Positions 16,693 to 52,414 of a DNA stretch of 64,000 nucleotides are shown here, piece by piece. The first letter of the stretch is position 1. Every line of letters starts with the position of its first letter. The notes under the pieces were generated by a model, which did no database searches, was not told the DNA's origin, and was given only the letters and a program-made list of their open reading frames with translations. Origin of the DNA: a virus; the IMG/VR virus record IMGVR_UViG_3300008120_000016, positions 32,001 through 96,000 of that record. One strand, written 5' to 3'. Made by a program: the position numbers and the translations under genes.

Positions 16693-16704
16693 AAATCAAC
16701 AACT

Positions 16705-17550: not shown

Positions 17551-17560
17551 TACTAACTAA

Positions 17561-17592: not shown

Positions 17593-17707
17593 ATATTAAA
17601 CTATTAATATGATAGAACACAAAAATTATCAAAGAAAAAATACTTTTACAGGTTGGGTGTATCATATTTATCTTGTAATTTTATCAATGTTTAGTAATCC
17701 AAGATAA

Positions 17708-19229: not shown

Positions 19230-19231
19230 TC

Positions 19232-19812: not shown

Positions 19813-19818
19813 AAAACA

Positions 19819-19852
19819 ATAGTAAAGTGGTCAATTTAGACCACTTTACTAT
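19819..19852. terminator. 14-bp perfect hairpin at the convergence of the replication and virion blocks
   Basis: ATAGTAAAGTGGTC-AATTTA-GACCACTTTACTAT, overlapping the TAG stop of the 2224-aa gene. Confidence 0.8.
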
Positions 19853-22800: not shown

Positions 22801-25800
22801 TTCATCTGATTGAGTTCCTAGAATCTCTGCTCTTTCTTTGAAAAGCTCATCTCTTTTTTTATAAAACTCATCACTAATTACAATTCTTGTATTACTTGCT
22901 TCCCAAAGTTTAAATTGCTCGCTATCTTCACCATACTTAAGCTTAGCTTTTTCACGAGATCTTTCATAAAACTCTGTTTGTTCTACAAATTCGTAAAGAT
23001 TTTTCTTATCTATATCGTATTGCTCTAATATATTAGCAATTTTTAAAGCATCACCTGTTTTTGGATTACCACGTTCATCAACTTTTTCTCTTATTGAAGC
23101 TTTTTCTTCAGTTATTTCTTGAAGTCTTTTTAAATAATCAGGATTAAAAGCACCATTTAATTTTTCCTCTTCTGTAAATTCGTTTTCTAACTGAAGAATG
23201 CGATTTTGTAAATTTGCATTTATTTCTCGTATAGTAGTTTCTACACCTTGATACATTACTTTTGTATCTAAAGGTTTAGTCATTCTATAATATTCATCAG
23301 TAAATCCTGTTTGTAAATATCTTTTTTCAAAATCTTTTAAATCTTTTCTTGCTTTTGTAATCTCACTTTTATTTTTTCCTTCTTGTGCTTTCTTTAGAGC
23401 ATATACTTTCTTGTTATAATCAGAATATAATCTTTCATCAAACTCACTTTTAAAATAAAGAACATTCATCGATTTGCCAGTGTTTACATTAAATTCATCA
23501 ACTACATATGTAAGAGACTGATTTAATGTTTTAACATCTAACATTTGCCCATAAATGTCCCATCTTTTTTGAAGTTGTTTACTTAAGTCATCTCTTACTT
23601 TTTTATTTTCAAGTCTAACTCTATCTAAAGATGCTTTTAATTTTTTAGCAGCACCAGCAAGAATAATATCAGGATTTCCTATTGTAGCAAACACCCTAGA
23701 CCAGAAAACACCAGCATCACCTCTATCTCCTTTTAATAACTCAGCTATTACTTTTTCTGATGGTAAGTTATCACGTTCTTCTTTTAATACTTCTGCTCTT
23801 TTAAAATCTTTTCTAACTTTTGCTGCAGCAATTAATTCATTATACTCTCTAACAATAGTGTTTAGTGAATCTTTGTTAAATACATCTAGTAACATATCAC
23901 TTACCATTGGAGTAATAGTGGTAACGTAATCATTGTTAACACTAGAAATTAAACCAACTAATTGTGAAAGTTTTTCATACACTGGATTATTTTGAGATGC
24001 ACCTGGCATATAACCGAGCAAATCTTCAAACATATTTCTGTAACCTGTTAGAAAATCTCTAATCTTCATCATTTCACTCAATCTTTGAGAAGCACCTGCA
24101 TTACTAGTAGGTGTAAGTTCTTTCAAAGATTCAAAATATTGAATAGTTTGTTCGATAATAGGTACACTTGAGTCAATCATATCAAGGAAACTTTTTTGCA
24201 TATTTGCAAACTGACCAGGTGTTATATTATCAAAATCTTCAAAAAGATCTAAAGCTGTTTTAACTTTTAAACGTTGTGAAGAAACTTTATTTGACTTTGT
24301 AGTAACATCTTCTAAAGCTTTAAATAAATTATCTTGATCTTTATTTTTTTCAAATTTTCTACCAATTTCAATTAATCTAGCGTATGCTTTTACAAAAGCT
24401 TCTTTTAATTTTTCCTTTTTTATTTTATTAATGTTATCTAAACGAGTATCTCTTATATCAATTTTTACTTCTTCTTTTATAGATGCATCGTTAGACGTAT
24501 CTAAATTAGGAAAATAATAACTTGCAAGATTACTATTAAAAGTAACATTCTCAATTAACTCAGGTCTTACTTCAGTAACCTTTTTTGTAGTATTATCTAA
24601 ACGATAAGGAACTCCTATTACATTTAAAGATCCTACTCGTACACCGGCCTCCATTAACATTTTTTTGTAAATAGAAAGCTGTTGTCCATACTTTTGTTTA
24701 TTACTTCTTTGTTTATCTACTAATTCTTTTAATGTTGTAGGATCATTTAAAACACCTGTAGGACTTAATTTATTAATAGCACTATGAAATTCTTCAACTA
24801 ACCCTTCTTTAACATAAGGTTTTTCTCCAAAGTTTTTAAGAAATTTAGTTTTAAAATCATAAATATCAACTGTACCATCCGGTTTTATTACAATAATATC
24901 TAGCTGACCACCTATTTTACCATTACTTATAGATATTTCACTCATAATAACTGAACCATCTTTTTTAATTTCTCTAAGCATACCCATAATTCCTGGATTA
25001 TGAATATCTCCAAAAATTAATGATTCAAGTGATTTTCGATCAATTAATCTATAAACATCCGGGCTTACATGTTCTGGGTTATCAAAATCAATTTTATTTC
25101 CCAAAATTAAATTTTCTACAATTGTGTGAATACCAGTACCGAATAATCTTTTAGATGTTGCTTCAGAAGCTTTAAATAATAAATCAATCAATCTTGGGTT
25201 CAATAATCCTTCAAATACACTTTTATCAAAAGTCCCATCTACAATATTATTTATTAAAAAATCCTTTACTTGTTCAGCTATTTCTATATTTGATTTACTT
25301 GTATCAATTATACCTGCTGGTATTGCATTTAACCATGCATCAGACAATTGCATTAATACACTTGGGTCTTCAAGCTCACTTATAAAATCACTACCTATAA
25401 TAGTAGTTACACTATTCATTACATTATCTTCACTAAAATCAGCATGAATATATTTATGACTATCTTTATTAAAACCAGTTTTAGCAACATAAGCAACAAT
25501 TTTTTGTAATGTTGCTTTCTGTGCATCATTCATTGGTTGAGATTCGTAAATATTCTTTTCTTCATCTGTTAGCTGATTGTAAATTTCAGATGATTTTAAA
25601 TTTGTATTTAACAATTCCATTTCACCAGAAAAAAACATTTCTTGCAATATTTCAAAAGAATCTTTTTTCACTTTAACTTTATTAATAAGACTCATTATCA
25701 TATCAATCAAAGTCTGCAACCAACCTCTTTTTTCTTTCTTTTTCATTTCATTAGCTAACTCTTTAGCTAAAGCTTCTTTACGAATTTTATCAAATCTAAC

Positions 25801-26523
25801 TTTACCATCTGGTGTGCGATAGTTAGGATTATTTTTATATTTTGCAAGTGTACTTTTATAAGTACTTGTAGTTCTAACTTTATCTAATGCTTCAATCAAT
25901 GCCTCATTATCTTGAGGCAACATATCTAAAAAGAAGTGCATAGCTTCTTCAGGAAGAGCTACATCCATCTTTCCAGATTGAATTTGAACCATTCTTTCTG
26001 CAAAATCAGCTATACCATTAGAACCATATTTTTTAATTAAATCGTCTTGTTCTAAAATTTTAACTCCAATGCGACTAAGAAAATCCTTACATAAATCAGT
26101 TAATGACTTTGATTGACTTCTATGATAAGTTGCAAGGCTGTTCCATTTATTAAGACTATCTTCATTGATTGTAACATAGTCTCCTTTATATTCTAACACT
26201 GAACCATACTTATCAGTGTATTTAGCTAGTTCGTTAGAAATATCTATATTTTGATTTAATGGATACCATTTACGACCATTTTCTTCTACAGGTTCACCAT
26301 AAATTATACTATCATTATTTAAAACATTTATAAGTTCATCCCATTTTAATAATGGTAATTTTTGTAAATCTTCTAAAGCTTCTCTATTTGTAAGTAATTC
26401 ACGAGCTTTTTCAAAAGACGGAATCTCAGAATTGTTACGGATAAAAGATAACATAGCTCTATCTTCACCAAGCTGTTCAACTAGTGATTTCCATTCTTTA
26501 CTACTTTTATTAGGGCAAACCAT
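19849..26523 (-). CDS. Giant virion cargo (ejection) protein, 2224 aa, with zincin-like and PD-(D/E)XK domains and a C-terminal TM helix
   Basis: PEEAMHF zincin-like motif; SVTTII ... GTGIH ... E ... GQLDII ... YDFKT ... QQLSIY nuclease; C-terminal ADIAIVLSIIAVTSLLLG; adjacent to the vRNAP as in crAss-like phages. Confidence 0.8.
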   Translation of the reverse strand: MVCPNKSSKEWKSLVEQLGEDRAMLSFIRNNSEIPSFEKARELLTNREALEDLQKLPLLKWDELINVLNNDSIIYGEPVEENGRKWYPLNQNIDISNELAKYTDKYGSVLEYKGDYVTINEDSLNKWNSLATYHRSQSKSLTDLCKDFLSRIGVKILEQDDLIKKYGSNGIADFAERMVQIQSGKMDVALPEEAMHFFLDMLPQDNEALIEALDKVRTTSTYKSTLAKYKNNPNYRTPDGKVRFDKIRKEALAKELANEMKKKEKRGWLQTLIDMIMSLINKVKVKKDSFEILQEMFFSGEMELLNTNLKSSEIYNQLTDEEKNIYESQPMNDAQKATLQKIVAYVAKTGFNKDSHKYIHADFSEDNVMNSVTTIIGSDFISELEDPSVLMQLSDAWLNAIPAGIIDTSKSNIEIAEQVKDFLINNIVDGTFDKSVFEGLLNPRLIDLLFKASEATSKRLFGTGIHTIVENLILGNKIDFDNPEHVSPDVYRLIDRKSLESLIFGDIHNPGIMGMLREIKKDGSVIMSEISISNGKIGGQLDIIVIKPDGTVDIYDFKTKFLKNFGEKPYVKEGLVEEFHSAINKLSPTGVLNDPTTLKELVDKQRSNKQKYGQQLSIYKKMLMEAGVRVGSLNVIGVPYRLDNTTKKVTEVRPELIENVTFNSNLASYYFPNLDTSNDASIKEEVKIDIRDTRLDNINKIKKEKLKEAFVKAYARLIEIGRKFEKNKDQDNLFKALEDVTTKSNKVSSQRLKVKTALDLFEDFDNITPGQFANMQKSFLDMIDSSVPIIEQTIQYFESLKELTPTSNAGASQRLSEMMKIRDFLTGYRNMFEDLLGYMPGASQNNPVYEKLSQLVGLISSVNNDYVTTITPMVSDMLLDVFNKDSLNTIVREYNELIAAAKVRKDFKRAEVLKEERDNLPSEKVIAELLKGDRGDAGVFWSRVFATIGNPDIILAGAAKKLKASLDRVRLENKKVRDDLSKQLQKRWDIYGQMLDVKTLNQSLTYVVDEFNVNTGKSMNVLYFKSEFDERLYSDYNKKVYALKKAQEGKNKSEITKARKDLKDFEKRYLQTGFTDEYYRMTKPLDTKVMYQGVETTIREINANLQNRILQLENEFTEEEKLNGAFNPDYLKRLQEITEEKASIREKVDERGNPKTGDALKIANILEQYDIDKKNLYEFVEQTEFYERSREKAKLKYGEDSEQFKLWEASNTRIVISDEFYKKRDELFKERAEILGTQSDEISDLYKQLRNLTGTYKDKDGYVRGTMLSKESAKKLKEIETRLEYLKDTSEVSIFNGYTREEKNRVDALYYAKNNGFDYSQRELDELREKAQQRIDMRMLADPDFAKKLKRLKEINDEIFSMSKKERTKYYDEELEKQMQMFADSRMITMDQLKQEGTYLEEFKESEWYMNNHIIKVKVLYEDEDGRKRVARTDTPTSQWLRSMPVEKYIEIKPGSHFVKSVQRDFYINEKGQKILLRDPNNLDVKNRFKPKTNEAYRKEYGVDHPYLNKDFVELRNRVNNGTADQMEKVDYENLIYISSKMLESQQEIELSQRLGLAVPFLEKQGLERTIETKGENITSKTQSRLTSFGQYIKRAFTRTDQDVDQTGIPTQEADSRNDIAKLATMDNEEIKYVPVRFSTKGEAENASYNVWGGVLGYLGSVTRKKELEKDLAFINGLESILGDKANQPKTEQRNLILNNIYKKYIPELEAARINKGTNIRLDTLKSFVNSVMYNEEYFQGIDVLGVNSQKAVNALMGLSSFTMLGAAPLNWATNWISGNIQNMVEGIGGKLYTMKEYGSAHSDIYGSGKYGSAIKDLMSDYTKVGMLSFWGQIMEYFDPIQGEFENEYGQKTNFNKAKNILQLGLFAGKVWGEWEIQMKSFIAFMKNVRLYDGKMVDKEDFITLKIGTDVENLTPREISELKLKALEEWDSLDVNLLDLFEQDKEGVLVVKDEYKNVFQLGSSEFSNIIGKLHAMQKRLNGSYAKFDRSYAEKTSLGRMAFFFRKYFLPIGVNRWGERRADYESMSPEQGFYITFIQSWGKDLVKFNWNNLVNWENYSDFEKRAIKRTLADIAIVLSIIAVTSLLLGWDPDDPDRFKKLKEKNWAHRATLFILLKVKSETEQFLPYAGLDEIKGVYSNPSLLFNETTRYIKISKLLGMHLLDATPFFNFEGSLYYKKDVDQSGLKDKGDAKIVAEFMRSFVGYTGRTIHPEDALKAFENLQKR

Positions 26524-26541
26524 TTATAAATAATTTAATTT

Positions 26542-29500
26542 TTAACAAGATAATCTTTTCAAAAACTCTTCAATTTTTTCACCAGATAGTTTTTCAGCAT
26601 CGTATTTCTTTTGAATATCTTGAACTGATTTAACTTTTTCAAATATCACTCTAGCAGAATCAAGATTATTATTTAAATACGAAGCAATTGTATATTCAAT
26701 ACTATCTTTAGAATAATCTGTAATAGAACCAATTTTAGATAAACTTAGGATATCCTTTCTCATACCATTTTCATCACCCCATTTCATAGCTTTATTACTA
26801 TCCAAAGATATAATAATACCTTTAGATGTTACAACATAATCTGTATTTCTGTAATTAATAATATTAGCTTTATTTGCCATTGCCTGGAGATTATCCTTAG
26901 ATACACTCTTTTTAGCAGCAGTTCCTTCTTTTAATGGATTATATATTTGAATTGTGTTATTTTTATTAAACTTAGTTACTATATACACTTCATCTTGATA
27001 CTTAACATATCTACCTGGTTCAATTTCAAAAGTTTTAACTGGTTCATTTTTAACCTCTGTTTTGGATTCAGAAACATATTGTATACCTGTTTTTAAATCA
27101 ACATCTTCTATGTAAATTTCTCCACTCTCTTTATCAGTTAAATAATACAAACCATTGTCTTGTAATAACCATTTCGATGTCTGAGGAGCATTTTCTCTTC
27201 TACCTGTAACAGGATTATAAAATACTTTAAACTTAGTTGCACTTGTAAAGAATTCTTTAGGAGCAACGTTGTTTGACTTTGATAAATATGTTTTATAAGC
27301 AGCTACATCGTCATCACTTATAACCTTTACACCTTTACCAGATGGTTTAGCAATAGGGGTAGTAGATTTAATTGCTGGTTTAGAACCTTCTAATTGTTTT
27401 TCTAATTCGTTTATTTCATCACTTGTATAATCTAAAATTACCTTAGAAAGTTTATCAAAAGCATATTTAAACTCAGAATCTACTTTAAATACTTTTTCAC
27501 CTTTCTTTCTTGATCCTATATAAATTTCATTTTCTTCTTTGTCGTACATAAAAAGATCATCCCCTGTAGGTTTAGGAAAAACATCCATTTCACCAGCACC
27601 AGTTCCAAAAGGAACATAATAAAACTGACCTTCTACATTTAATAAACCTTTAGAAACTTTTTTACCTCCAATAGCTGTAATAAATTGGTCTACTCCTTCT
27701 TTACCTTTTAATATGACAACGTCAGCAGGTTTGGTTCTTTTCATTGCTTTATCAGATATGCCAGGTAATCTACCATGTCCGTAGATAGAATATGTAGCTC
27801 CTATTTCATTTAAATAATCAATAAATGGAGTATCTACACCTTCCATATCACCTACTATAAAAGTATAATCTCCTGCATCGTGTACCTTTTTAATAGCAAA
27901 TTTTGTATCTTCTTCTAAAGGTTTTCCTTTTAAAGTACCATTTCTAGCTAACATAACATGACCTCTTTCACTATCACTAAAAACATAAATAGTTTTTTCA
28001 CTATTGGGTGTTTTTTGAACTTTCCAATCTATAGGTTTTCCTTGACGATCATTAGGTAATTCTTTTTTCCATCTCGCAAGTATTTCTTTTGCTGATGTAT
28101 GAGTAGAACTTTTTCCATTATAATCTGTGACCTCACCAATAAAGAATTTTGCATCTTTTCTCATAGCTACATCAGCATCTGTACCACGTGAAGCACTTGG
28201 ACGATTCCATTTAAATACTTTTACTTCAGATAATCCTGGAGAACTTTCATCTCTTATACTTTTACCAGGCTTATCTTTTATTCTTTCATTAATTAAATCA
28301 ACAAGTACGTGTGCATGACTTCTATAGCCTGCTTTAAAGTATACAAAAGTTTTATTATCAAGTCTTCCTGAATCAATTACCCCAAGTATCCAATCTCTTC
28401 TTTCAGGTTGCACATCAAAAAAGTCTTCTTTTCTCAACCACTTTTCATAATTATTAGCAGCTTCTATAATACCATCCATTCCATCTTGAACAGTTTTAAT
28501 AGAACCTTGAAATCCTTTTTCACTCCAAGGATTTCCAAAATGTAAATTTTCATCTACACCTGGAATATCATCACCGGGATTAGGTCTCATTGAATAAATA
28601 CCTTCCTTACGTCTAGCTGCTTGTTTAGTTTCAAAAGTACCAGCTTTAATTACTAATCTTGTTTGATTACCCAAAGGTGTCATAACATTTCCTGGTTGTG
28701 CAGAAGATGTTTGTGTAATAATCTTTTTAAAATCAAGTTTATACTTACGAGTGTACCATTTACCAAGACTACTTTTATCTCCGGTTAATGTATCTTTTGA
28801 AATTCCAGTGTAGAATATAGGATTATTTGAACGAAACATGCTCCAAAAATGTTTATAGACATCACTTTTTTGTTTCGTACCAAAATCAGCTATTAAATTC
28901 TGATAACTTTCAAAGGCATATCCGTATAATTTATTAATTATTTGAATAGGTGCTACCGATGTATAACTTACATCAGAAGTATTCATGCCAGATTGAAAAA
29001 TTGAATATAAAGCAAGATCTTTAAAAAAACTAACTACTAATCTATCTATATCATCTTTAGGTTCAATATTTACCAAACTTTCAAACTGACTAATAATACT
29101 TTGTTTTTCTATTGGGTTAGAACTATTTTCAACTAATTTAAAAGTATTTAATCGATTATTATTCTCTCCTATTTGTAATACTATATTTTTAATAAAAGGA
29201 TATCTTTCAGCTAATGAATTAAAAGCTAAAACGTCAGCACCAGAAACATTGTCTTTTATTTTTCTAGTTTTTAATTCATACCAATTATCAACCATTTTAG
29301 TAGTAGTAACTAATTCTAATAAATACTCATTTAAATCTTTATCAGTATTAAATGTTTCTTTAAAAAATTTAGTACCTTCTTCAGATTTGTCTAAGCCATT
29401 TTGTAACAAGTAATTAGCAAAATCATTTTTTGCAGTTCGTGCTACTTTTGACATATCATCTTGAGAAATAATCTGTTTATTATCACGACTATCTCTCATT

Positions 29501-32500
29501 AAAGTTATTTCATTTAAAAGAAACTCATTAAAATCTTCATCATTTCTTATTGGAAATAACTCACTAAGAATTGATTTAATATCATCTCCAACATCTAAAG
29601 GACTAATAATACTATTCTTTTTAATATTTATTAAAGTTTCACTGCTTAAAATGTTTAAATTAAAGTCCACTGATCTTTCATACTCATCGTTTTTAGCATA
29701 AACTTCAAATGAACTTTTATAAGGATTTGTATCAAAATCTAAAAATCTTTGTGCTTCTGTCATACTGTTAGACTGCTCTCTTAAATTTAATAATTCTAAG
29801 AGCATAGACAGCTGTATAATTTTTCCTTTATCAGTTAATGTTGATATATCAAAATCAATTTCACCATTGTCTTCTCCTTTTTGAATACCTTTATACAACA
29901 TTTCTTCTGTAAAAAACTGATCGTAAGATCCATTTACAAAACTTATATTTCTTTCTAATGTTTTTTCTATTGCTTTTTTACTAGTATCTTGTTGAGCAAA
30001 TCCAAGTTCTAACAATGTTCTTTTTAAAGCTAATTGTCTTGAACCTTCATCTCCATCATAATTAAGCTGAGTATGAAGATTTTGATACATCGACAGGTTC
30101 TTAATGTATGTTCTAATGGCAGGTTGATTAACAAAATATAATATCTTTTTAGAAGACATCCCAGCATATTTCATATAAAATATAATAGGACTTAATTCTG
30201 TTACAACATTAGCTGCAAAAACATAATCATCTCTAGCAACATCTACAAAAGCATTAATAAACTCACTAAAAAACTCTGATTTTAATTGATTGTCTTCGTC
30301 AAATATGCTTGCAAAATTTATGTTTTCAATTAAACCTTTTGAATTTTTTTCAATGTAATTTGAATTAAAAAATGTTTTAATTTGACTTGAATTGAAAAAA
30401 TGAGAATTACCTTCTGCATTAGCAAGTTGAAACATTACATTAAAGGTATTTGCTTTAGCTGCAATACCTAAATCACTTTTACCTTTGAGAAGTGATATGA
30501 ATTTTCTTAAGTTTTTTTCTCGATCAAGAATATCTGAATTCTTATAATCTGTTTTAGGTCTATCTTTTCCTTCTTCCTTTCTACCAAGTTTCTCAAATAT
30601 TTCATCTATTATAGGTAATATGTGATAATTTTCTGATGGAGTTACTAGTTCCATGTAGTTAGCAGGATGTAAAATAATATCAGCCATTACATCATAAAGC
30701 TTATTTTGTATATTACCTTTTATGTGATTGTATTTATATAATCTATTATGAACTACTTCAATTTCTTTTGTAATATCATTATAAATACCATCAATATATT
30801 CTTTGTTCTGATCACGAACTAGTTTTAAATATTCTGTCTCAGAATTAAATAAATTTTCTATTGAATTTACAAGTGTTTCTAAACCTTGTTTTCTTGTGTC
30901 GACCCAAAGCATAGGATTAAATACATTAAGATTATTATCTTCCATGTATTTTTCATATTCTCCTATATCAAAAGTGATATTAGAACGAATTAAATTTTGT
31001 AATACACTATCTGGATGATCATTGTTTTCAGCTGTTCTTGATAATGCTGATTTCATATTATCTGCAGCCTCAGCATCCATTACAGCAATAATTGTCTGAA
31101 CTCTTCTTAATAAACGATTAAGTTTATCTCGTGTTTGAGTATCTTTTCTTAAAGCTTTTCTATATGTACGTTCTAAATCTTTATACTCTTGAAGCAAATC
31201 ATTGACGGTAGTTCTTCTTGCTAGTTTTAAATAACTCAAATCAGCAACAGCTTCTGCTTTTTTATCTTGTATGTTTTCTTGTAAAATAGAATCATTATAT
31301 TCAAAATTGATATAATTACCATTTTTATCCAGATTAGGATAGAACACAAACATCTTATCAATATCAAAGTCAGATCCGGATTTAATAACCACTTCAGATG
31401 GCATAATAATAGCATCACCTACACTAGCCGGTAAAAATTCTTTTACCATCATTACATCTAAAAAGTTTCTACCTTGTGTTGGAATCCTATAAGCAATCAT
31501 AGTAATTGCTTTTTCATTTTCTGCTCTCCAAGCATCATCTCGTATAGCTTGATTTAATCTCTCTCTTGTTCCAATTTTTGAACCATTCCAGTTAAGATTT
31601 AATAAATTTAACCATTGACCAGTGAGAGCTATTTTGACATCCATTTTACCAACAATAACATTATTTGCTATTTGTTGAACATCATAGTAATTTAATTCAG
31701 AATTACCATATGTCTCAACAGCTTTTTTACTATCATCCTTATTAAATATTGTAGGTTCTGATCCTGTAATAGCCATCTGAACTAACATAGATCCGTTAGT
31801 CTTATATCTTACTACTCTATTATTAATAGCAGATATAATTATTCCTTCAATAACTTGAGCTTGTACTGCAGCATCTAATGGAATTTCAAACTTACCTGTT
31901 GTTTCATTATATGAAAGAGCCTTTTTTACATTGCTGTCTTGATTCTTTTTATCTATCTCTTTAAAAAAGTATTCAACTAATTTATTTAAATCATTAACTT
32001 GTAACTTATCACCAACTTTCTTAATACCCATTTCATCGTATATGGCAGTTTTTTCTAACTTAGCCAAATGATCCATATACTTAATATACTTATCTCTATA
32101 TTCAACAAACTCTGGTCTATCTAAATTCATTAATATAAGCTTACGAATTTGAGAACCAAACGTAGCATGATCATGAATTTCAGAATGTATAGCCACCTGT
32201 TCTTTAAAACTATCAAAGTATAATTCCTGTTCAGACATGAATTTATCTAAAGGATTAAACTTATTAATTTTTCTTACCGTAGGGTTTTTAGGATCAAACT
32301 CACTGTAAAATTCATCTAGCTCAGAAGGTGTTTCAACTTTACTTCCACTTTTAAATTTAACATAACCAATACCGTTAAACTCCATTTTTTTAGCTAAGTA
32401 ATAATCAGCTGTTCTAACACCATCACGTTTAACTACAGTTGGTATAAGAGGTTGCAATGAAAACTTATCAAATATGGGAACTTTTTGATTATATTCCTCA

Positions 32501-35500
32501 CCATCTATCTCTCTAGAATAGTTTTGTGTTCCTGCATATTGGAACTTTTTTGGAGGAAAGTAAACTGGTGCAGTTGAATCATAACCTACAGCATCTCTCA
32601 AAGCAATATATTCTGCTTTAAGTACAGGGTCTGTTTCTTCATCAGCAAGCTCATCATAATGATCGTATTCAACAATTTTTCTATAAGTTTCTTCATGCTC
32701 ATCAAACCATTGTCCAGTTAATATACTCATGATTCTATAAAAATCAAATGTACATTTACCTTGACCATCTGCTTCTGTACCTTCGTATTTATCCTTAATA
32801 GTTTTTTTAAGATTCTTTTCATAAAGTTCTTTCATTTCGGGTGATATAAAATCACCTGGAACAGATTCAATTTTAGATATATTTTCTAAAATTTTATCAG
32901 CATGAATTGATCTAAAGTTAACATCTTTTAAAACAGCAGATCTATACGACTTATTTTTACTAAGCATTTGTTTAGAAAGAGCTTGTCGTCTTTGCTCTTC
33001 TGTAATTTTTCCTTGTAAAAACAATCTTTCTATAAGTCTTCTACCTGTTAAATTGTTAGAACCTCCCAGTCCTTGATTATCATCCCACTTGTTTAAATGA
33101 TCAATAATCTCATTGTCTATAAATGTAAATATACCTGTAGCAGAATCTTTAGATGCACGTTTATGAAAATCTTTAAAATAAATAGCATCACCAAAAAATA
33201 CTTTCATTTGATCTAAATCAGTAATAAAAGTATTTGCAACAAAAGAATAAATAATATCTTTTAGATTAATATCTTTATTTCCTGTATTGACAATATCTTG
33301 TGTTGTTAAACCTACTTTATTTTTATAAGTATTAAGCTTCTTTAATAATTTATTAGCATTGTTTGTAAAATATGTATTAAAATCTTTTATTAACTCGTTA
33401 ATAAATTTTTCATTTGCTGTTTTATCAAATAAAATATCAAGTTTATTTATACTACTATCTGAACTATCTGCAGCTTTTTTAACCTTGTCACTTAAGTATT
33501 TTTTATTTTTATCTGATATTATTGAATCAAATAAACCAAACACTGGTTTTTTATTTTTATCATAAAAAGCATTTTCAGACATCAATAAACCACTTTGAAT
33601 TAAATCTCCATTAGAATCAAATTGTGATTTATAGAATCCTTTTTCATATAAATATCTAACACTAACTATATCTTTCAATGCATTAAGCAGTGATTGATTA
33701 AAAAGATCTGTGTTAAAAATATTTGATGTAGTATCTGAACCTAGTGGTCTTCCGTGCTTAATAGGAACTCCATTAACTATATCAATACCATAATTTAATG
33801 ATAGACCTAAATCAGTTGACTTATCACCAAGCCTCATTACACCACTATAATGTCTTTTATTATTTGAGTTAAAAGCATGTATATCTAACAAAAGTTTATC
33901 TATTTCATTCAATCCTGTTGTTGAAATACCTTCTTTCTCAAAACTGTCAAGAAGTTTCATTTGTAAACCACCTGTATTCAAAACCCCTATAGATACAGGT
34001 GTGCCCCCGATAGTCTTAGCTTGATCTTTAGTAATATATTCATCACCTTTTTTAGTTACATATCTTCTTTTTCCAAATCGTTCATCAGATGGATTAAAGA
34101 AAAATAAACTATTTAAGTAATAACTATTTGCAATACTAGGATTTTTACGCGGATCTAACCAAAACATTGAAGGCTCACTTTGAATAATGCTAAATAAATC
34201 TTCATACATTTCTGGATCAGACAAGTATTTTGCTAATACTGTAAAACCATTATGTAATTGCAACGCATGTATTCTAGTTCCCTCAGCACTTATTGAACTC
34301 TTTTCTACATTATATTCTGGATTATTTTTTAGTTCTTCCTCTATTAATCTTTGTATAGCAGCACTTTGACCACCTGCTAATTTACCATTTACAACTTTTG
34401 GATTACTTATATTCTTTTGAATATCTTTAATCGGATTTAAAACAAAAGCTTTATTGTCTAATATTTGTGATAGATGTCTAACTATAAATCCAAAACTATC
34501 TTTTAAATAACTACCATTGGTTAAAAATTCTTCTGTTTTAGGAGAAAATTCAAATCCTAAACCTTTTAAGAATTCTACCTTTCTTCTTTTCTTTTCAAAA
34601 TCTGTTATATTATCAGCATTTAGAAAATCATTTATTTTTTTAATATCATTTGGTAATAACATCCAAACTCCATCTTCTCTTGATGCCAACTGAATAACTT
34701 GATTAGTAGCTGGATCAGCTAAAACTTCTATGCCTTTAATTGAAAAATTAGAACTTATTTTTCTTTCGTATGCACTACTCTTACCTGAAGCAGCTTCAGT
34801 AATAATAAAATTATTTCTGCTGCCATCACCTTTATTCTGTCTTTCAATAGATGTAATATATATAGGTACAAATGCTTTTACAAATGAGTTTCTAAATTTA
34901 ATTCTAAAATTTAATTCCTCAGCTGTAAGATTTTGTCCAGTTTGCTGTAGTTTATCCAACAAATAAGAATACTCAGGAACTTTATCTAGATTTTTATTTA
35001 ATTTAGAAATAATTTCAGTTAAGCCCGTCGAGTTTTCTAAATCGTTAAACAACTTACGAATAAAATCAGAATAATTTATAGACATAGTATATCCATAATC
35101 ATCATACAAATCTTCATTTGCTGATGGGATACTTCTAATAAATAATTCAACTGATTTATCAATATCATCTACAGGATCAATCTCATTAGCTGGTTGATCA
35201 AAAACCATTTTAGCAATTGCAGCATCGTCATCAGCTACAGTTGATAAATCAACTAACCCGTCTTCATCTAATTTAAACTTTGATCGAACTCTAAATATAT
35301 CACTATAGATCAAAAAGTTAGGAGTAATTTGATCCCATAAACTAATTATACCTTGCAAATTACCTGCAAACTTTTTATAAAGTTCTTCTGATGATTCATC
35401 ATTATATTCATTTTTTGAAATAGCTGCTTTTTCAATATAATCAGCAACAAGGTTAGGAATAATAGAAGTTTTAACAGTTTCAAATAAATGAACCATTTGA

Positions 35501-35787
35501 GCTACTCTATATGCTTCTTTACCAATACGATTTAAATCGTCTGTATTAGATGCGGTTATTAGCATTGTGGCTAACTTACCTCCAACCAAATCACTTAATT
35601 GTTGTCTTGTATATTCACCACTACGAATTTTTTCAAATACCTCAATAGACTCAGGTGTTTTAGGTTGTTGAGATATTTTATAAAAATCCATTCCTTTCAT
35701 TTCGAGTGCACGAAATAAAAAATATTCAAGCTTATTAATAATTAATGGGAGCTTTTCTACTTTTAATTTGACTGGACAGTTCGACAT
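26542..35787 (-). CDS. Virion-packaged single-chain two-barrel RNA polymerase (crAss-like vRNAP), 3081 aa
   Basis: ADGQG, KFSLQPLIP, YRIPTQG and catalytic GSDFDIDK (31354-31377), the DxDxD variant known from the phi14:2 gp66 family; accessory C-terminal domains. Confidence 0.9.
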   Translation of the reverse strand: MSNCPVKLKVEKLPLIINKLEYFLFRALEMKGMDFYKISQQPKTPESIEVFEKIRSGEYTRQQLSDLVGGKLATMLITASNTDDLNRIGKEAYRVAQMVHLFETVKTSIIPNLVADYIEKAAISKNEYNDESSEELYKKFAGNLQGIISLWDQITPNFLIYSDIFRVRSKFKLDEDGLVDLSTVADDDAAIAKMVFDQPANEIDPVDDIDKSVELFIRSIPSANEDLYDDYGYTMSINYSDFIRKLFNDLENSTGLTEIISKLNKNLDKVPEYSYLLDKLQQTGQNLTAEELNFRIKFRNSFVKAFVPIYITSIERQNKGDGSRNNFIITEAASGKSSAYERKISSNFSIKGIEVLADPATNQVIQLASREDGVWMLLPNDIKKINDFLNADNITDFEKKRRKVEFLKGLGFEFSPKTEEFLTNGSYLKDSFGFIVRHLSQILDNKAFVLNPIKDIQKNISNPKVVNGKLAGGQSAAIQRLIEEELKNNPEYNVEKSSISAEGTRIHALQLHNGFTVLAKYLSDPEMYEDLFSIIQSEPSMFWLDPRKNPSIANSYYLNSLFFFNPSDERFGKRRYVTKKGDEYITKDQAKTIGGTPVSIGVLNTGGLQMKLLDSFEKEGISTTGLNEIDKLLLDIHAFNSNNKRHYSGVMRLGDKSTDLGLSLNYGIDIVNGVPIKHGRPLGSDTTSNIFNTDLFNQSLLNALKDIVSVRYLYEKGFYKSQFDSNGDLIQSGLLMSENAFYDKNKKPVFGLFDSIISDKNKKYLSDKVKKAADSSDSSINKLDILFDKTANEKFINELIKDFNTYFTNNANKLLKKLNTYKNKVGLTTQDIVNTGNKDINLKDIIYSFVANTFITDLDQMKVFFGDAIYFKDFHKRASKDSATGIFTFIDNEIIDHLNKWDDNQGLGGSNNLTGRRLIERLFLQGKITEEQRRQALSKQMLSKNKSYRSAVLKDVNFRSIHADKILENISKIESVPGDFISPEMKELYEKNLKKTIKDKYEGTEADGQGKCTFDFYRIMSILTGQWFDEHEETYRKIVEYDHYDELADEETDPVLKAEYIALRDAVGYDSTAPVYFPPKKFQYAGTQNYSREIDGEEYNQKVPIFDKFSLQPLIPTVVKRDGVRTADYYLAKKMEFNGIGYVKFKSGSKVETPSELDEFYSEFDPKNPTVRKINKFNPLDKFMSEQELYFDSFKEQVAIHSEIHDHATFGSQIRKLILMNLDRPEFVEYRDKYIKYMDHLAKLEKTAIYDEMGIKKVGDKLQVNDLNKLVEYFFKEIDKKNQDSNVKKALSYNETTGKFEIPLDAAVQAQVIEGIIISAINNRVVRYKTNGSMLVQMAITGSEPTIFNKDDSKKAVETYGNSELNYYDVQQIANNVIVGKMDVKIALTGQWLNLLNLNWNGSKIGTRERLNQAIRDDAWRAENEKAITMIAYRIPTQGRNFLDVMMVKEFLPASVGDAIIMPSEVVIKSGSDFDIDKMFVFYPNLDKNGNYINFEYNDSILQENIQDKKAEAVADLSYLKLARRTTVNDLLQEYKDLERTYRKALRKDTQTRDKLNRLLRRVQTIIAVMDAEAADNMKSALSRTAENNDHPDSVLQNLIRSNITFDIGEYEKYMEDNNLNVFNPMLWVDTRKQGLETLVNSIENLFNSETEYLKLVRDQNKEYIDGIYNDITKEIEVVHNRLYKYNHIKGNIQNKLYDVMADIILHPANYMELVTPSENYHILPIIDEIFEKLGRKEEGKDRPKTDYKNSDILDREKNLRKFISLLKGKSDLGIAAKANTFNVMFQLANAEGNSHFFNSSQIKTFFNSNYIEKNSKGLIENINFASIFDEDNQLKSEFFSEFINAFVDVARDDYVFAANVVTELSPIIFYMKYAGMSSKKILYFVNQPAIRTYIKNLSMYQNLHTQLNYDGDEGSRQLALKRTLLELGFAQQDTSKKAIEKTLERNISFVNGSYDQFFTEEMLYKGIQKGEDNGEIDFDISTLTDKGKIIQLSMLLELLNLREQSNSMTEAQRFLDFDTNPYKSSFEVYAKNDEYERSVDFNLNILSSETLINIKKNSIISPLDVGDDIKSILSELFPIRNDEDFNEFLLNEITLMRDSRDNKQIISQDDMSKVARTAKNDFANYLLQNGLDKSEEGTKFFKETFNTDKDLNEYLLELVTTTKMVDNWYELKTRKIKDNVSGADVLAFNSLAERYPFIKNIVLQIGENNNRLNTFKLVENSSNPIEKQSIISQFESLVNIEPKDDIDRLVVSFFKDLALYSIFQSGMNTSDVSYTSVAPIQIINKLYGYAFESYQNLIADFGTKQKSDVYKHFWSMFRSNNPIFYTGISKDTLTGDKSSLGKWYTRKYKLDFKKIITQTSSAQPGNVMTPLGNQTRLVIKAGTFETKQAARRKEGIYSMRPNPGDDIPGVDENLHFGNPWSEKGFQGSIKTVQDGMDGIIEAANNYEKWLRKEDFFDVQPERRDWILGVIDSGRLDNKTFVYFKAGYRSHAHVLVDLINERIKDKPGKSIRDESSPGLSEVKVFKWNRPSASRGTDADVAMRKDAKFFIGEVTDYNGKSSTHTSAKEILARWKKELPNDRQGKPIDWKVQKTPNSEKTIYVFSDSERGHVMLARNGTLKGKPLEEDTKFAIKKVHDAGDYTFIVGDMEGVDTPFIDYLNEIGATYSIYGHGRLPGISDKAMKRTKPADVVILKGKEGVDQFITAIGGKKVSKGLLNVEGQFYYVPFGTGAGEMDVFPKPTGDDLFMYDKEENEIYIGSRKKGEKVFKVDSEFKYAFDKLSKVILDYTSDEINELEKQLEGSKPAIKSTTPIAKPSGKGVKVISDDDVAAYKTYLSKSNNVAPKEFFTSATKFKVFYNPVTGRRENAPQTSKWLLQDNGLYYLTDKESGEIYIEDVDLKTGIQYVSESKTEVKNEPVKTFEIEPGRYVKYQDEVYIVTKFNKNNTIQIYNPLKEGTAAKKSVSKDNLQAMANKANIINYRNTDYVVTSKGIIISLDSNKAMKWGDENGMRKDILSLSKIGSITDYSKDSIEYTIASYLNNNLDSARVIFEKVKSVQDIQKKYDAEKLSGEKIEEFLKRLSC

Positions 35788-38700
35788 TATTTACAAGATT
35801 TTTTATGATTTAATTCAAAACGAGGAGCCCAAGCTCTTTTATTACCTGGTAGTTTAATTTTCTTTTTAGTAGTGTTTACCTCACCACTTGCTTTTTTAAC
35901 AGCTTTATCTATGGCATTTTCATCTTTGTTTAAATCATTAGATGTAACTGATATTGTATTTTTTGTTGGATTAAGATCTGAAGGTTCCAAAAAGTGAACA
36001 GATGAATTATATCTCTTTATAGCATCCTTAGATGGTATATCATTAATGTATGTAGTAAGACCTATGTTATTCATTAAATAATCCATATAATCCATCTTTT
36101 CAAAATTAATAACTTTTTTACCATCAACTTCAGTTATATATGGAAATTTAAAGTTTAATTTTCCCTCTAAAAATTGCTTAGATGCATTAACTCTCATTCT
36201 ATCTACATAAGGTCTAATAATATTTAAATTGTCTTCATTAATGGTTAATACACCATTTATTTCTTCAAAGACTGGAAGAGTTGTCATTTGATCTTTAATA
36301 CGTACTGAAATATTTCTAAATTTTTGAGGTATTTGTAAATTATAATTAGACCCTGTAATCCATGTTTCTTTAGCCCAGTTCCAAAGATCTCTTTGCACAT
36401 CACCTAAATTAGAGCTGTTATCCTTTTCCATCTGATGATATACCTTCATTAACTCAACAAGATAATTGAATAAAGTATATTCTTTTCCATCTGTTGATGT
36501 AATTTTAACAGACTTTGATGCAGGAGTAAATAAAGGAGTACCTTGCAAAGCACCATCATTATCTTCTATGATAGCATTTAAATATTGACCTTGCAAAATA
36601 AATGATACATGATCTTGTTTTAATTTCTCAACAATATCTTTATCTCGTAAAGTATTTTTTTGACTTTTAGATTTTGGTTTTACTAAACCTTTTAATACCA
36701 TTTGCCCTTTACTAATTCTTTTAAGTTTAGCTATTTGGGGCTTACCGTTCATTACTTTTTCACGAGCTTTAAATAACTTATCTAATTGCTCAGGATTAAT
36801 TCTTTTTAAAGAATCAGGATGTGTATTAGGTGTATATGTATTAAAATATACTATTTGATTTTCACCATTATTAAACCGGCTAGCAATTGGATTATTTTTA
36901 TCTGCCTTACCTATTGCTTTACCATCTTTATCAAACACTATAGGATTACCATCTTTATCAGATATATATCCCACTACACCTTTGTCAGAAGAGATCCATT
37001 CTCTACTTTGTGCCGAACCATCCCATCTTAATCCTTCGGCATCTTTATCTAACGTAACATAAAAGTTAGCAATGTCATTTAAAGATGCTAACGATAACTT
37101 GTTAATAATGTTTCTAACTTTATAGTAATATAATTTAAATGAATCATATTCAATATATTCACCATTTTTAAGTTGCCCATCATTTCCTTTTGATCTTAGA
37201 CCTTCAGGCTCAACAGCAGTAATTGTAACACCAGACTTTACACTAGAAATATCAATTGCTGATGGATCTTCTTCATAAGATTTATTAGCTAAATCAGATG
37301 TTATTTTAAAATTTGCTTTCTGAGTTTGATTTGTTTCAGGTACAGGAGAAGGTGATGGTGGTGGTGGAGTAGGTGGTTTTGTAGTTTTGTCAATCTCAGC
37401 TTTAACATTATCAAATTCAGTTTGATTAGTAACTTTAGTTAACTTAAGACGACCCTTTTTAAATATTTCTAAAGTACCTGATTTATCAGAATAGTAATAT
37501 TTTGTTTTACCAACCTTAATTTGTTTAAGATCTTTAACAGCATTATTTATTTCTTGTGTATTAAGCCTAGCAACTTTTTGCTTTATCGAAGCTATAATAG
37601 AATTAAATATTGAATCCGGTAAAGCATCTTTAACTTTATTATCTGTTAATTCTTTAGTTATATTGTTTAATTCATCCACTGTAGCTGCGGATGCAATTTT
37701 TTGCATATACTTTTCAGATGGAAGTTGATCATCAACAACAACTGCATCTTTATTCATCAAGTCATTTGTTAGAGACAAAACTTCAGACAATGTTGTATCA
37801 GAAATATTTATTCCGATTCTAGATAGTATATCACTTAATAGTTCTATAAAAGTTTCCCAAATTGTTTTGCTTGTATTAGCGTAAGGTGTTTTAGCTAATA
37901 AATATTGAAATGAAGGATTTGTAAATGCTTCTGTTACAAACTCTCGTAATTGCTGCCCTTCATCTAGATTTTTTTGATAAGCATAAAAAGTTTGAGCACC
38001 TGGAACATTTTTTACAGTGTTGTATAAACTTTTAATTGCTTTAGCATATTCGGATGTAGGGTCACTAATTGAATCTTCGATAACAGCATGTATAAGTTCA
38101 TGAAGAATAACAGTTTCAGCAGGTACTGATAAACCATTTTCTTTATATCCTGCAATATCAAGATTTATAAATATTTCTTTAGTAACATAATCAAACATTC
38201 CAGCTGTATCAAGATTATTATTAACTTTAATAACGTCTTCTTCAGATACAACTCTTAATAACTTTTTAGCTAATTCTTTTTCATAATCTGTAGCAAACTG
38301 ACTATCAATTATAAATAATAACGCATTTTCAGTTTTAATACTACCATCGGCATCTACCTGTAAAAGTTTAGATAATTCATCAGTGGTTCTTGTATCAGTA
38401 GAAAACTTTTGTCTTAAACTATTAAAGGGAAGTCCTACTTGATTTTGATCAACAGGTTCGTATGAAAATAATTTTTCTTTACTTTTAAATCCAACAGCTG
38501 CATTTAATTGACTCTTATATTTATTAAGCTGTTCATTTTTAGCATAATCTTCAACTTGTAAAATCTGTTGCTTATTTAATATTGAATCTGAATTTTCAAG
38601 TACATTTAAAATTTCAGTTTCAGTTAATGGCTCAGCATTATCATCTTCAGACTTTGTAAGATTATATGTTTGAATAGCACCAGCATATAATGATTGTAAC

Positions 38701-47400: not shown

Positions 47401-47654
47401 TTTTGCTGCATTGAAAAATCAGCAGAAGCAATTTGTTGCAGTTGTCCTTCAATGTCTTTTAAATACTTATCTCTACGTTCAACATTAGAAGGATCTGTAA
47501 GTTCTTTTTTTAAACTATTATAAGAAGCTGCAGCTGCTTTTAAACCTTGTTGATATTGCTGTGATTTTTTATCTAAAACGTATTTTAAAAAGGAAAAATC
47601 CGGAGTATATATCACCGGATCAAACCCACCATATTGTATGTCTGTTGCTGCCAT
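44496..47654 (-). CDS. Large virion cargo protein, 1052 aa
   Basis: Helical and Cys-free; first gene of the giant-protein run; no catalytic motif recognised. Confidence 0.7.
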   Translation of the reverse strand: MAATDIQYGGFDPVIYTPDFSFLKYVLDKKSQQYQQGLKAAAASYNSLKKELTDPSNVERRDKYLKDIEGQLQQIASADFSMQQNVNYANSLFDPVSTDKAILYDQYHTKRIKNEIGRMEAWKNSEDMDVRKQYNAEIQEWVARDLNSLKTGQGNIDNYKVEGRTAAAYVDPQDLLDKAVKEKGFKTKIDNLGQPYIVTVEGGPQFDQNYQTFAENVLASNNVYQRQLQILGQSRQEKVIEKYKADPKWANSSNEDIYKDYARTSFNEHRNTQKQYLDNINKRVFDETGAIDAELKGPNADKYIKGKQDIIAGNSNTQEAQMYIALEQRSRNRNSLDEKAKAVRESYNQTFGSDDGTVQKNMNSYMDNFVKSPQTFFSDLQFKNDVTRFSNIKSASVSRTVKEDRAYVDIMVAKTNAMRAVNDIKDDIHDNAVDDAKLDLKEKELDAKLAMQGKRRVKNADGTYKMNSDGTYATEDGTAGITPIDVSSTVITSTEAITKLKDKVQSANNTALNNMTKTFGALSLLESMGVSDVNVSSIRTAFTKYYNADDKTKVTLTAQETAALRDAYSKMWAFSKNNPTNTFLDQERQNFANTKVDRTLLSRMPDLLERATTGYQARTKNEVEAKRALMDYKNNLQEIEISGKALESGRKYIVDKLGNNPDYAGMFYTKPDGTKDVIDKAYVSKNMMKFKKAINEDISMGFDKRADLTDDDIEDIAEGYVNGAIQFTHHTHNPDVPLSDASKVMFTYKGKEYYIYDQYENGKIITAVPYTSKTFQKYTKEINSQIPIPQFMQGAGIAPGLVQGSPFYEISGENKEKMLHGLSEVTPTNSAIFQYADGTSEATDVPPALQAEIRTALETKDNVTSVKLFTSSPLNGGGQAVKITMKTPSGENPPAWAGKSFYFPISPTIASPSIYHVFSNVNEVGEFATNRKDGTKYHFDAFQAEGVKAEMMPSQAGSNTGYIQLYYKPYTPGVNGQPGSYSTEFVPYGDRMEYDLSKTTFPEIKNNIYETFINPYVLGKIAINNQMKTQAAAAGVPPVTTQSIRNELIKSY

Positions 47655-47682
47655 TTAGTATTAATTTAAGAAAAAATCTTTG

Positions 47683-47710
47683 AAGTTTAAAACTAAACTT
47701 TATAAGTTTA
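47683..47710. promoter_or_regulatory. Interlocked inverted repeats upstream of the cargo/vRNAP gene run
   Basis: AAGTTTA-AAAC-TAAACTT-TAT-AAGTTTA: one TAAACTT arm can pair with either flanking AAGTTTA; lies in a 57-nt intergenic gap. Confidence 0.45.
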
Positions 47711-47711
47711 A

Positions 47712-52412: not shown

Positions 52413-52414
52413 GT

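What the first reader, a model, noticed from the sequence alone, without database searches (positions are those of the whole stretch)
26515..35795. Head-to-tail terminal cysteines link three consecutive, almost Cys-free giant cargo proteins
Seen (hand count of the supplied translations): the 2901-aa protein has one Cys, its penultimate residue (..KSCK); the 3081-aa vRNAP has three, at position 4 (MSNC), one internal, and the last residue (..LSC); the 2224-aa protein has two, one at position 3 (MVC). So four of six Cys in about 8200 residues lie within 4 residues of a terminus, exactly at the two gene junctions. The outer ends of the trio have none, and I saw no Cys in the upstream 1052-, 1566- or 821-aa proteins. 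Inference: disulfide or metal links join the proteins in gene order into one chain of about 8200 residues that is threaded through the tail in a fixed sequence and released in the reducing cytoplasm, i.e. a redox-cleavable ejection polyprotein. I know of no description of this.
Basis: partly seen in the sequence, partly recalled or inferred. Interest (0 to 1): 0.78.

Follow-up and report, generated by a model that had tools for sequence, protein, structure and literature searches.

The report
Terminal cysteines chain crAss cargo proteins
Three giant proteins that this crAss-like phage most likely packs and injects (its RNA polymerase in the middle) are almost free of cysteine except one at each end that faces the next protein. 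Relatives keep these cysteines wherever the genes are separate and lack them wherever the genes are fused. This points to end-to-end disulfide ties, which have not been tested in this group of phages.

Summary
On the minus strand the 2901-aa protein (A) has one Cys, at position 2900. The 3081-aa virion RNA polymerase (B) has Cys 4, 1012 and 3081. The 2224-aa protein (C) has Cys 3 and 145. The three upstream cargo proteins have none.

The pattern is far from chance and is conserved:
- A homologues: 0/42 have an N-terminal Cys, and 39/42 have one near the C-terminus.
- B homologues: 85/101 have an N-terminal Cys and 94/101 a C-terminal one.
- C homologues: 56/59 have an N-terminal Cys and 0/59 a C-terminal one.

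The rule holds in phi14:2 and p-crAssphage. It also holds in crAss001, where the genes lie on opposite strands.

In 39 of 39 polymerase-bearing proteins, a terminal Cys is present exactly where the junction is split. It is absent where the junction is fused (AB|C, A|BC, ABC).

Cryo-EM of the unrelated cyanophage A4 shows such a disulfide (gp27 Cys1715 to gp26 Cys5). The bond itself, ordered threading and reductive release remain untested in crassviruses.

I found no paper describing this for Crassvirales. This scan has already noted the same rule on other DNA (38 notes, at least 34 genomes).

The parts
35787..44492 (-). Protein A, 2901 aa. First member of the trio. N-terminus MPD.., no N-terminal Cys.
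   Evidence: 42 homologues: 0 have an N-terminal Cys, 39 have a Cys within 20 residues of the C-terminus, and in 30 it is the only Cys.
35793..35795 (-). Cys2900 codon (TGT), penultimate residue of A (..KSCK). It lies at the tip of a basic tail of about 70 residues predicted to be disordered.
   Evidence: Invariant in alignment A4. AlphaFold pLDDT is 33-48 over the last ~70 residues, after a well-folded domain.
26542..35787 (-). Protein B, 3081 aa, virion RNA polymerase of the crAss type.
   Evidence: DFDID motif at residues 1473-1477. tblastn matches to crAss-like polymerases. An HMM of its clade hits phi14:2 gp66 at 8.4e-30.
35776..35778 (-). Cys4 codon of B (MSNC), on a free N-terminal tip before helix 10-31.
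   Evidence: Invariant in 31 sequences of 38-88% identity. pLDDT below 50 for residues 1-7.
31357..31371 (-). DFDID catalytic metal-binding motif of B.
32752..32754 (-). Cys1012 of B. Internal, nearly invariant in the near clade only (GQGKC motif). Not part of the junction rule.
   Evidence: Absent from phi14:2 gp66, which has only the two terminal Cys.
26545..26547 (-). Cys3081 codon, last residue of B (..LSC).
   Evidence: Invariant in A1. 94/101 homologues have a Cys in the last 10 residues.
19849..26523 (-). Protein C, 2224 aa. Last member of the trio, with no C-terminal Cys. Homologue of crAss001 gp49.
   Evidence: The family HMM hits crAss001 gp49 at 7e-31. 0/59 homologues have a C-terminal Cys.
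26515..26517 (-). Cys3 codon of C (MVCPNK). The CPN motif is widely conserved.
   Evidence: 56/59 homologues have Cys at position 3 or 4, followed by Pro in 51. Invariant in A3.
44496..55262 (-). Three upstream cargo-like proteins with no Cys at all: 1052 aa, 1566 aa (with an M23-like peptidase domain) and 821 aa (with a peptidase-like stretch).

Best explanation
A, B (the virion RNA polymerase) and C are cargo proteins kept almost free of cysteine, as ejected phage proteins often are. Each also carries one deliberately retained cysteine at every end that faces the next protein. In the virion, A's C-terminal Cys bonds to B's N-terminal Cys, and B's C-terminal Cys bonds to C's N-terminal Cys. 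These are most likely disulfides, so the three proteins form one covalent unit in the order A-B-C. That unit is the functional equivalent of the single fused polypeptide that some relatives encode.

Shown: the cysteines, their conservation, their restriction to junction ends, their loss on fusion, and their independence of gene adjacency.

Inferred by analogy with phage A4: that the link is a disulfide.

Inferred only: that the chain fixes stoichiometry and the order of exit through the tail, and that host thiol reductases separate the proteins in the cytoplasm.
For: 1. Conservation.
- B homologues from 88% down to 23% identity: 85/101 have a Cys at positions 3-8 and 94/101 have one in the last 10 residues. 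32 have these two Cys and no other in 2000-5000 residues.
- A homologues: 0/42 N-terminal, 39/42 C-terminal.
- C homologues: 56/59 N-terminal, 0/59 C-terminal.
- The outer ends of the same proteins act as the internal control.

2. The rule holds in cultured and reference crassviruses.
- phi14:2: g067 (sole Cys is the last residue), g066 (Cys 3 and -2 only; PDB 6VR4), g065 (sole Cys at 3).
- p-crAssphage: gp45 (Cys at -2, plus two internal) and gp44 (MSC..).
- Four Suoliviridae and further Intestiviridae.

3. crAss001 and PhiCrAssBcn1: gp47 (sole Cys at -3) is encoded on the opposite strand to gp50 (Cys 5 and -9, plus one internal) and gp49 (sole Cys at 5). The rule therefore acts on the proteins, not on gene-boundary DNA.

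4. Split versus fused.
- AB fusions keep only the C-terminal Cys, and their C partner keeps its N-terminal Cys (L013-15, L019, cr1_1, cr118_1, P0057, P0060, P0098, P0127, P0135).
- BC fusions keep only the N-terminal Cys, and A keeps its C-terminal Cys.
- ABC single giants (P0073 = L011, P0071, P0082, P0090) have no terminal Cys, and two have no Cys at all. Their C-terminal parts are 34-58% identical to the separate C proteins of sister phages.
- In total, 39/39 proteins obey the rule at both ends.
- On a polymerase-core tree the N-junction state changes at least 5 times and the C-junction state at least 4 times, and the Cys follows every time.

5. A fourth protein inserted between B and C in L017 (462 aa) has exactly two Cys, at 7 and -2.

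6. Precedent. Cryo-EM of cyanopodophage A4 shows a disulfide between gp27 Cys1715 and gp26 Cys5 (PMC12002296). In the A-4L record these are the only Cys of a 1717-aa and an 1114-aa protein, at -3 and 5.

7. Intermolecular disulfides do exist in crAss001 virions, in the tail and the portal vertex (PMC10172136).

8. Anatomy fits a tether: a disordered basic tail on A and a free N-terminal tip on B.
Against: - No experiment shows the bond in any crassvirus. The cargo proteins were not resolved in the crAss001 maps.
- Assembly takes place in a reducing cytoplasm and gut phages live in anoxic surroundings, so when and how oxidation would occur is unknown. This genome encodes no thioredoxin-fold protein.
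- Some C-terminal Cys lie further from the end: -9 in crAss001 gp50, -9 to -17 in a subgroup of A, and -23 in L038.
- In Intestiviridae, other cargo proteins carry a C-terminal Cys with no evident N-terminal partner (p-crAssphage gp47 at -2 and gp48 at -6; crAss002 gp30 at -8).
- Phylogenetically independent contrasts on well-supported branches are few: 3 for each junction, all concordant, and each set alone gives p = 0.25.
- The A4 proteins share no detectable homology with A, B or C, so the precedent is an analogy.
Confidence: 0.62

Rival explanations
1. The Cys pairs are disulfide staples of a static pre-ejectosome inside the capsid. They secure co-packaging and 1:1:1 stoichiometry, as in the 'mortise and tenon' ring of A4. 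They do not serve as a thread that sets the order of passage through the tail, and the bonds may break or be irrelevant during ejection.
For: In A4 the gp27-gp26 bond sits in a pentameric ring of the pre-ejectosome. crAss001 is estimated to carry about equal copy numbers of the three polymerase-associated proteins. All the comparative evidence fits this reading as well as the threading reading.
Against: The exact interchangeability with a peptide bond at both junctions, always head to tail and never tail to tail, is what a linear chain predicts. A's Cys sits on a long disordered tail rather than in a packed interface.
Confidence: 0.22
2. The terminal Cys bridge a metal ion (Zn, Fe, Cu) between termini rather than forming disulfides.
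For: The window has four terminal Cys, the number needed for one tetrahedral site.
Against: AB|C and A|BC phages keep only two terminal Cys, too few for a Cys4 site. No His, Asp or second Cys is conserved beside any of them. The A4 map shows a disulfide.
Confidence: 0.07
3. Each terminal Cys serves something other than the neighbouring cargo protein: attachment to the portal, capsid or DNA, acylation, or a processing signal.
For: Extra C-terminal Cys on other Intestiviridae cargo proteins have no evident partner. C's N-terminus (M-x-x-C-P) faintly recalls a lipobox.
Against: This would not explain why only junction-facing ends carry the Cys (0/42 and 0/59 at the outer ends). It would not explain why both Cys vanish together on fusion. 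There is no signal peptide before the Cys.
Confidence: 0.06
4. The pattern is a by-product of gene boundaries (translational coupling signals, annotation of starts) or of chance.
For: In the window the genes abut, and B's ATG overlaps A's stop.
Against: crAss001 keeps the rule with gp47 on the opposite strand. The distances of the Cys from the termini and the neighbouring residues vary while the Cys stays. Intergenic spacing varies from an overlap to hundreds of bases. The chance probability is about 1e-9 for the window alone.
Confidence: 0.01

Closest known systems
Cyanopodophage A4 (Anabaena phage A-4L) pre-ejectosome: disulfide between gp27 Cys1715 and gp26 Cys5 (PNAS 2025, PMC12002296)
   Same: Two consecutive, large, capsid-internal ejection proteins. 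The upstream protein's only Cys lies 3 residues from its C-terminus, and the downstream protein's only Cys is at position 5. The two are seen bonded in the virion map. Neighbouring ejection proteins carry peptidoglycan hydrolase domains, as here.
   Different: No detectable sequence or profile similarity to A, B or C. One junction, not two. No polymerase in the chain. The paper reports the bond as a structural detail. It does not report a conserved rule, and it makes no link to gene fusion or fission.
RNA-polymerase cargo block of Crassvirales: phi14:2 gp67-gp66-gp65 (gp66 = PDB 6VR4) and crAss001 gp47-gp50-gp49
   Same: Same gene block and order, with the DFDxD two-barrel polymerase in the middle. 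B and C are homologous. All three are virion proteins in phi14:2 and crAss001. The terminal-Cys pattern is the same.
   Different: The window's phage is a distant lineage, about 25% identical in the polymerase core. Its A protein shows no detectable similarity to gp47 or gp67. The papers on these phages do not mention the cysteines.
Fused 'polyprotein' forms of the three proteins in some crAss-like phages (noted in Drobysheva et al., bioRxiv 10.1101/2020.03.07.982082)
   Same: The same three modules in the same order. I confirmed AB, BC and ABC fusions.
   Different: The window has them as three genes. The literature proposes proteolytic cleavage of the fused forms. The converse idea, that split forms are rejoined through terminal Cys, is not in the papers I could search.
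Cysteine-free ejection proteins of N4-like Schitoviridae (vRNAP gp50/gp71, gp51/72, gp52/73; PMC11445570)
   Same: Strong suppression of Cys in giant ejected proteins, including a virion RNA polymerase. This is attributed to passage through the envelope.
   Different: N4-like phages have essentially no Cys at all and one giant protein. Here, and across Crassvirales, a defined set of terminal Cys is retained against that background.

Membership tests
Crassvirales virion RNA polymerase (phi14:2 gp66 type, two-barrel) | DFDxD metal-binding motif in a conserved context | tested here: met
   DFDID at residues 1473-1477 in the context ..KSGSDFDIDK, a single occurrence, shared by all 39 relatives examined.
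Crassvirales virion RNA polymerase (phi14:2 gp66 type, two-barrel) | Sequence similarity to characterised members | tested here: met
   tblastn gives 1e-20 to 1e-23 against crAss-like polymerase genes, at about 25% identity. The clade HMM hits gp66 at 8.4e-30 and crAss001 gp50 at 2.7e-19. A single-sequence phmmer search against PDB found nothing.
Crassvirales virion RNA polymerase (phi14:2 gp66 type, two-barrel) | Fold like 6VR4 | tested here: inconclusive
   Only the first 350 residues were modelled. 6VR4 chain A is the top Foldseek hit (probability 0.91), but E is 0.44 and TM is 0.35.
Crassvirales virion RNA polymerase (phi14:2 gp66 type, two-barrel) | Packaged in the virion and ejected | not testable with these tools
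   Inferred from homologues detected in phi14:2 and crAss001 virions.
Three-protein polymerase cargo block of Crassvirales (A-B-C) | Synteny: giant protein, polymerase, giant protein, downstream of the tail and cargo genes | tested here: met
   Gene order. The same order is seen in L002-L006, phi14:2 and others.
Three-protein polymerase cargo block of Crassvirales (A-B-C) | C homologous to crAss001 gp49 / phi14:2 gp65 | tested here: met
   The family C HMM hits crAss001 gp49 at 7e-31, cr1_1 C at 1e-19 and cr118_1 C at 2e-17. gp65 is linked through cr1_1 C.
Three-protein polymerase cargo block of Crassvirales (A-B-C) | A homologous to crAss001 gp47 / phi14:2 gp67 | tested here: not met
   The family A HMM does not hit gp47 or gp67 at E <= 1. 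Equivalence rests on position, size and the C-terminal Cys only.
A4-type head-to-tail disulfide between consecutive ejection proteins | Near-sole Cys at the C-terminal end of the upstream protein and at the N-terminal end of the downstream protein | tested here: met
A4-type head-to-tail disulfide between consecutive ejection proteins | Disulfide seen between the two Cys in the virion | not testable with these tools
   Seen for A4 only.
A4-type head-to-tail disulfide between consecutive ejection proteins | Homology to A4 gp27 / gp26 | tested here: not met
   No HMM hit. hhalign probability is below 1%. No A4 chain appears among the Foldseek hits.
Cys-depleted phage ejection proteins (N4 type) | Cys frequency far below the phage's other proteins | tested here: met
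   0.052% over six cargo proteins (11645 aa), against 1.23% in the other large ORFs.

The most novel reading that the evidence does not exclude
Across the whole order Crassvirales, and by convergence in at least one unrelated podophage, a terminal Cys-Cys link and a peptide bond are interchangeable ways of joining giant ejection proteins. Split genes are re-joined after translation into a redox-cleavable 'polyprotein' of 6000-8000 residues. This unit is packed at fixed stoichiometry, leaves the capsid as one thread in gene order, and is cut into working enzymes by the host's own thiol reductases.
Probability: 0.45. Interest if true: 0.85.

Novelty: new variant of a known kind. Interest (0 to 1): 0.75.

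Why it matters
How crassviruses, the most abundant phages of the human gut, pack about 5 MDa of cargo and deliver a multi-subunit RNA polymerase through a narrow tail is an open question. The crAss001 atlas states only that the order of ejection is probably set by packing and by interactions among the proteins. A conserved covalent tether would give a concrete and testable answer for stoichiometry, order of exit and release.

The test needs only virions of phi14:2 or crAss001, a non-reducing gel and disulfide-mapping mass spectrometry.

The rule also gives annotators a simple way to recognise the members and the order of the cargo chain in uncultured phages. It can flag false gene splits and false fusions as well.

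Tried and rejected
- A megablast of the region against phage records found nothing.
- A single-protein scan of IMG/VR found nothing. An alignment query was needed.
- Pfam and PHROGs gave no family for A, B or C.
P0073 was also too long for it. Genomic context therefore came from IMG/VR loci and GenBank phage records only.
- My automatic choice of code 15 for locus L020 produced a false B+C 'fusion'. Inspection showed a TAG stop right after ..KYTC, followed by a gene beginning MSIKKC, so L020 is an ordinary A|B|C locus.
- My first 'control' set of other large ORFs was contaminated by distant A, B and C members that the HMMs miss. I replaced it with the outer termini of the same proteins.
- Apparent splits without Cys are not true junctions. 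These are the L001 C gene (two frames, 108-nt gap), the L031 and L033 B genes, and the IAS virus B gene (with Ns). The missing residues are encoded in the gaps, so I read them as frameshifts or assembly errors.
- No homology of A4 gp26 or gp27 to C or B was found.
- Foldseek found no informative match for A's C-terminal domain.
- No thioredoxin-fold gene exists in the phage genome.
- The metal-site idea was weighed and set aside, because two-Cys architectures exist and no co-ligands are conserved.


Full report
**What is there.** The window is part of a 124.7-kb IMG/VR virus record estimated at 96% complete. A minus-strand operon runs from about 62.9 kb down to 19.8 kb. In order it encodes:
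- a 1451-aa virion structural protein (17 Cys);
- a 1088-aa protein with a transglycosylase stretch (10 Cys);
- three Cys-free proteins of 821, 1566 (M23-like peptidase domain) and 1052 aa;
- the trio A (2901 aa), B (3081 aa) and C (2224 aa).

B carries the DFDID motif of crAss-type virion RNA polymerases. It matches the polymerase genes of Crassvirales at about 25% identity. An HMM of its clade hits phi14:2 gp66 at 8e-30, and the C-family HMM hits crAss001 gp49 at 7e-31. This is a distant crAss-like phage with the usual polymerase cargo block.

**The observation.** A has one Cys (2900 of 2901). B has three (4, 1012, 3081). C has two (3, 145). The three upstream cargo proteins have none. Cys frequency is 0.07% in the trio against 1.2% in the other large ORFs of the window. 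By a simple random-placement model the clustering at the four junction termini has a probability of about 1e-9 to 1e-10.

**Conservation.** Three database searches gave 101, 42 and 59 cluster representatives for B, A and C.
- B: 85/101 have a Cys at positions 3-8 and 94/101 have one in the last 10 residues. 32 have exactly these two Cys and no other in 2000-5000 residues.
- A: none has an N-terminal Cys and 39/42 have one within 20 residues of the C-terminus. In 30 it is the only Cys.
- C: 56/59 have Cys at position 3 or 4, mostly in the motif C-P-N. None has a C-terminal Cys.
- Cys4 and Cys3081 are invariant in an alignment of 31 B proteins of 38-88% identity.
- Most exceptions are truncated ORFs or fusions.

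Thirty-six IMG/VR loci and twelve GenBank phages gave genomic context. The rule holds in:
- phi14:2: g067 ends ..NTIC, g066 has only Cys 3 and 2179 of 2180, and g065 begins MSC with no other Cys;
- p-crAssphage, crAss002, cr107_1, cr271_1 and cr8_1;
- four Suoliviridae;
- IAS virus and crAss001.

In crAss001 and PhiCrAssBcn1 the A-type gene (gp47, sole Cys at -3) lies on the opposite strand to gp50 (Cys 5 and -9, plus one internal) and gp49 (sole Cys at 5). The pattern is therefore a property of the proteins, not of abutting genes.

**Split versus fused.** This is the strongest evidence.
- Relatives encode the three modules as A|B|C, AB|C, A|BC or ABC. In L017 the arrangement is A|B|X|C, where the 462-aa X has exactly two Cys, at 7 and -2.
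- The fusions were verified by homology on both sides and by the absence of internal stops under the standard code.
- In all 39 B-containing proteins with known architecture, an N-terminal Cys is present if and only if A is a separate protein, and a C-terminal Cys if and only if C is separate.
- The ABC giants P0071 and P0082 have no Cys at all in more than 4300 residues. Their C-terminal 800-1000 residues are 34-58% identical to the separate, Cys-tipped C proteins of sister phages L013-L015.
- On a tree of the polymerase core the N-junction state changes at least 5 times and the C-junction state at least 4 times, and the Cys tracks each change. There are three independent contrasts per junction on well-supported branches, all concordant. 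That number is too small for a strong formal test on its own.
- One apparent B+C fusion (L020) was my own artefact from reading TAG as sense. Under the standard code it is a textbook junction..KYTC stop then MSIKKC.

**Chemistry and precedent.**
- No second ligand is conserved beside any of the Cys. AB|C and A|BC phages have only two terminal Cys. A pairwise link therefore fits better than a four-ligand metal site.
- A note from an earlier run of this scan pointed me to the cryo-EM structure of cyanopodophage A4. I read it: gp27 Cys1715 is disulfide-bonded to gp26 Cys5 in the pre-ejectosome.
- In the A-4L record these are the only Cys of a 1717-aa and an 1114-aa protein, at -3 and 5. This is the same signature as here.
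- There is no detectable homology to A, B or C.
- crAss001 virions do contain intermolecular disulfides in the tail and the portal vertex.
- AlphaFold models with shallow alignments put A's Cys at the end of a disordered, lysine-rich tail of about 70 residues behind a folded domain. They put B's Cys4 on a free tip before helix 10-31.

**Literature.**
- Cys depletion of ejected proteins is known for N4-like phages.
- The fusions are known, and proteolytic cleavage has been suggested for them.
- The crAss001 atlas and the phi14:2 polymerase paper say nothing on these cysteines.
- Four further full-text searches found no description for Crassvirales.
- The scan itself has recorded the same rule in at least 34 other genomes.

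**Verdict.** A junction-specific, end-to-end link is very likely (about 0.8), and a disulfide is the most likely form (about 0.6-0.7). The functional story (ordered threading, reductive release) is plausible but untested. A static staple of the packed complex is the main rival. I class the finding as a new variant of a known kind. Its precedent is a single bond seen in an unrelated phage. What is new is the rule, its reach across Crassvirales, the polymerase in the middle, and the exchangeability with a peptide bond.

Noticed in passing
window 47712-52412 (-), 52797-55262 (-), 55297-58563 (-): The Cys-free 1566-aa protein has an M23-like metallo-endopeptidase domain (residues 264-388), and the Cys-free 821-aa protein has an L-Ala-D-Glu peptidase-like stretch. 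The 1088-aa protein with a transglycosylase stretch is not Cys-free: it has 10 Cys, mostly in close pairs (131/136, 208/215, 758/763, 1068/1071), which look like metal sites. It may therefore stay with the tail rather than be ejected.
   Followed up: partly
P0008, P0011, P0014-P0018, P0041, P0059, P0073 and others (homologues of B): The variable C-terminal half of the polymerase in relatives carries different enzyme domains according to precomputed Pfam hits: AlkB-type dioxygenase PF13532, PF18760, RNase H PF00075, PF08719, and helicase domains. The window's own B shows none. The polymerase seems to serve as a carrier for varied injected enzymes.
   Followed up: no
L008 (crAss002, MN917146.1) 16737-29474: The annotated start of gp33 (MVLDYS..) is probably 32 codons too far upstream. 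The close relative cr107_1 and p-crAssphage begin the orthologue at MSC.., which is present in-frame in crAss002 at residue 33.
   Followed up: partly
L017 20770-22158 (+): A 462-aa gene lies between the polymerase and the C protein. Its only two Cys are at positions 7 and -2, as if it were a fourth link inserted in the chain. Its function is unknown.
   Followed up: partly
L041 (p-crAssphage) gp47, gp48; L008/L048 gp30/gp38: Upstream cargo proteins of Intestiviridae end in a conserved ..[FY][RK]CGG[KH].. or ..SCR motif, with a C-terminal Cys that has no evident N-terminal partner. They may link tail to tail, or to something else.
   Followed up: no
L001 5811-12541; L033 3019-9852; L031; L047 (IAS virus) 14723-23705: C or B genes appear broken into pieces without Cys at the breaks. 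The missing residues are encoded in the gaps, with frame changes or Ns, so these look like assembly errors, frameshifts or inserted elements rather than true gene boundaries. The Cys rule could be used to tell the two cases apart.
   Followed up: partly
N-termini of A homologues (P0102-P0143; window 44484-44492): The free leading end of the chain has its own conserved motif, M-P-[DEN] (MPD in the window), in most A proteins and in AB and ABC fusions. It may be the end that engages the portal or tail first.
   Followed up: no
L043, L044 (cr4_1, cr56_1): The cargo genes of these Suoliviridae hold 7-38 in-frame stops under the standard code (recoded stop codon), yet they keep the terminal-Cys pattern at the annotated boundaries.
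   Followed up: no
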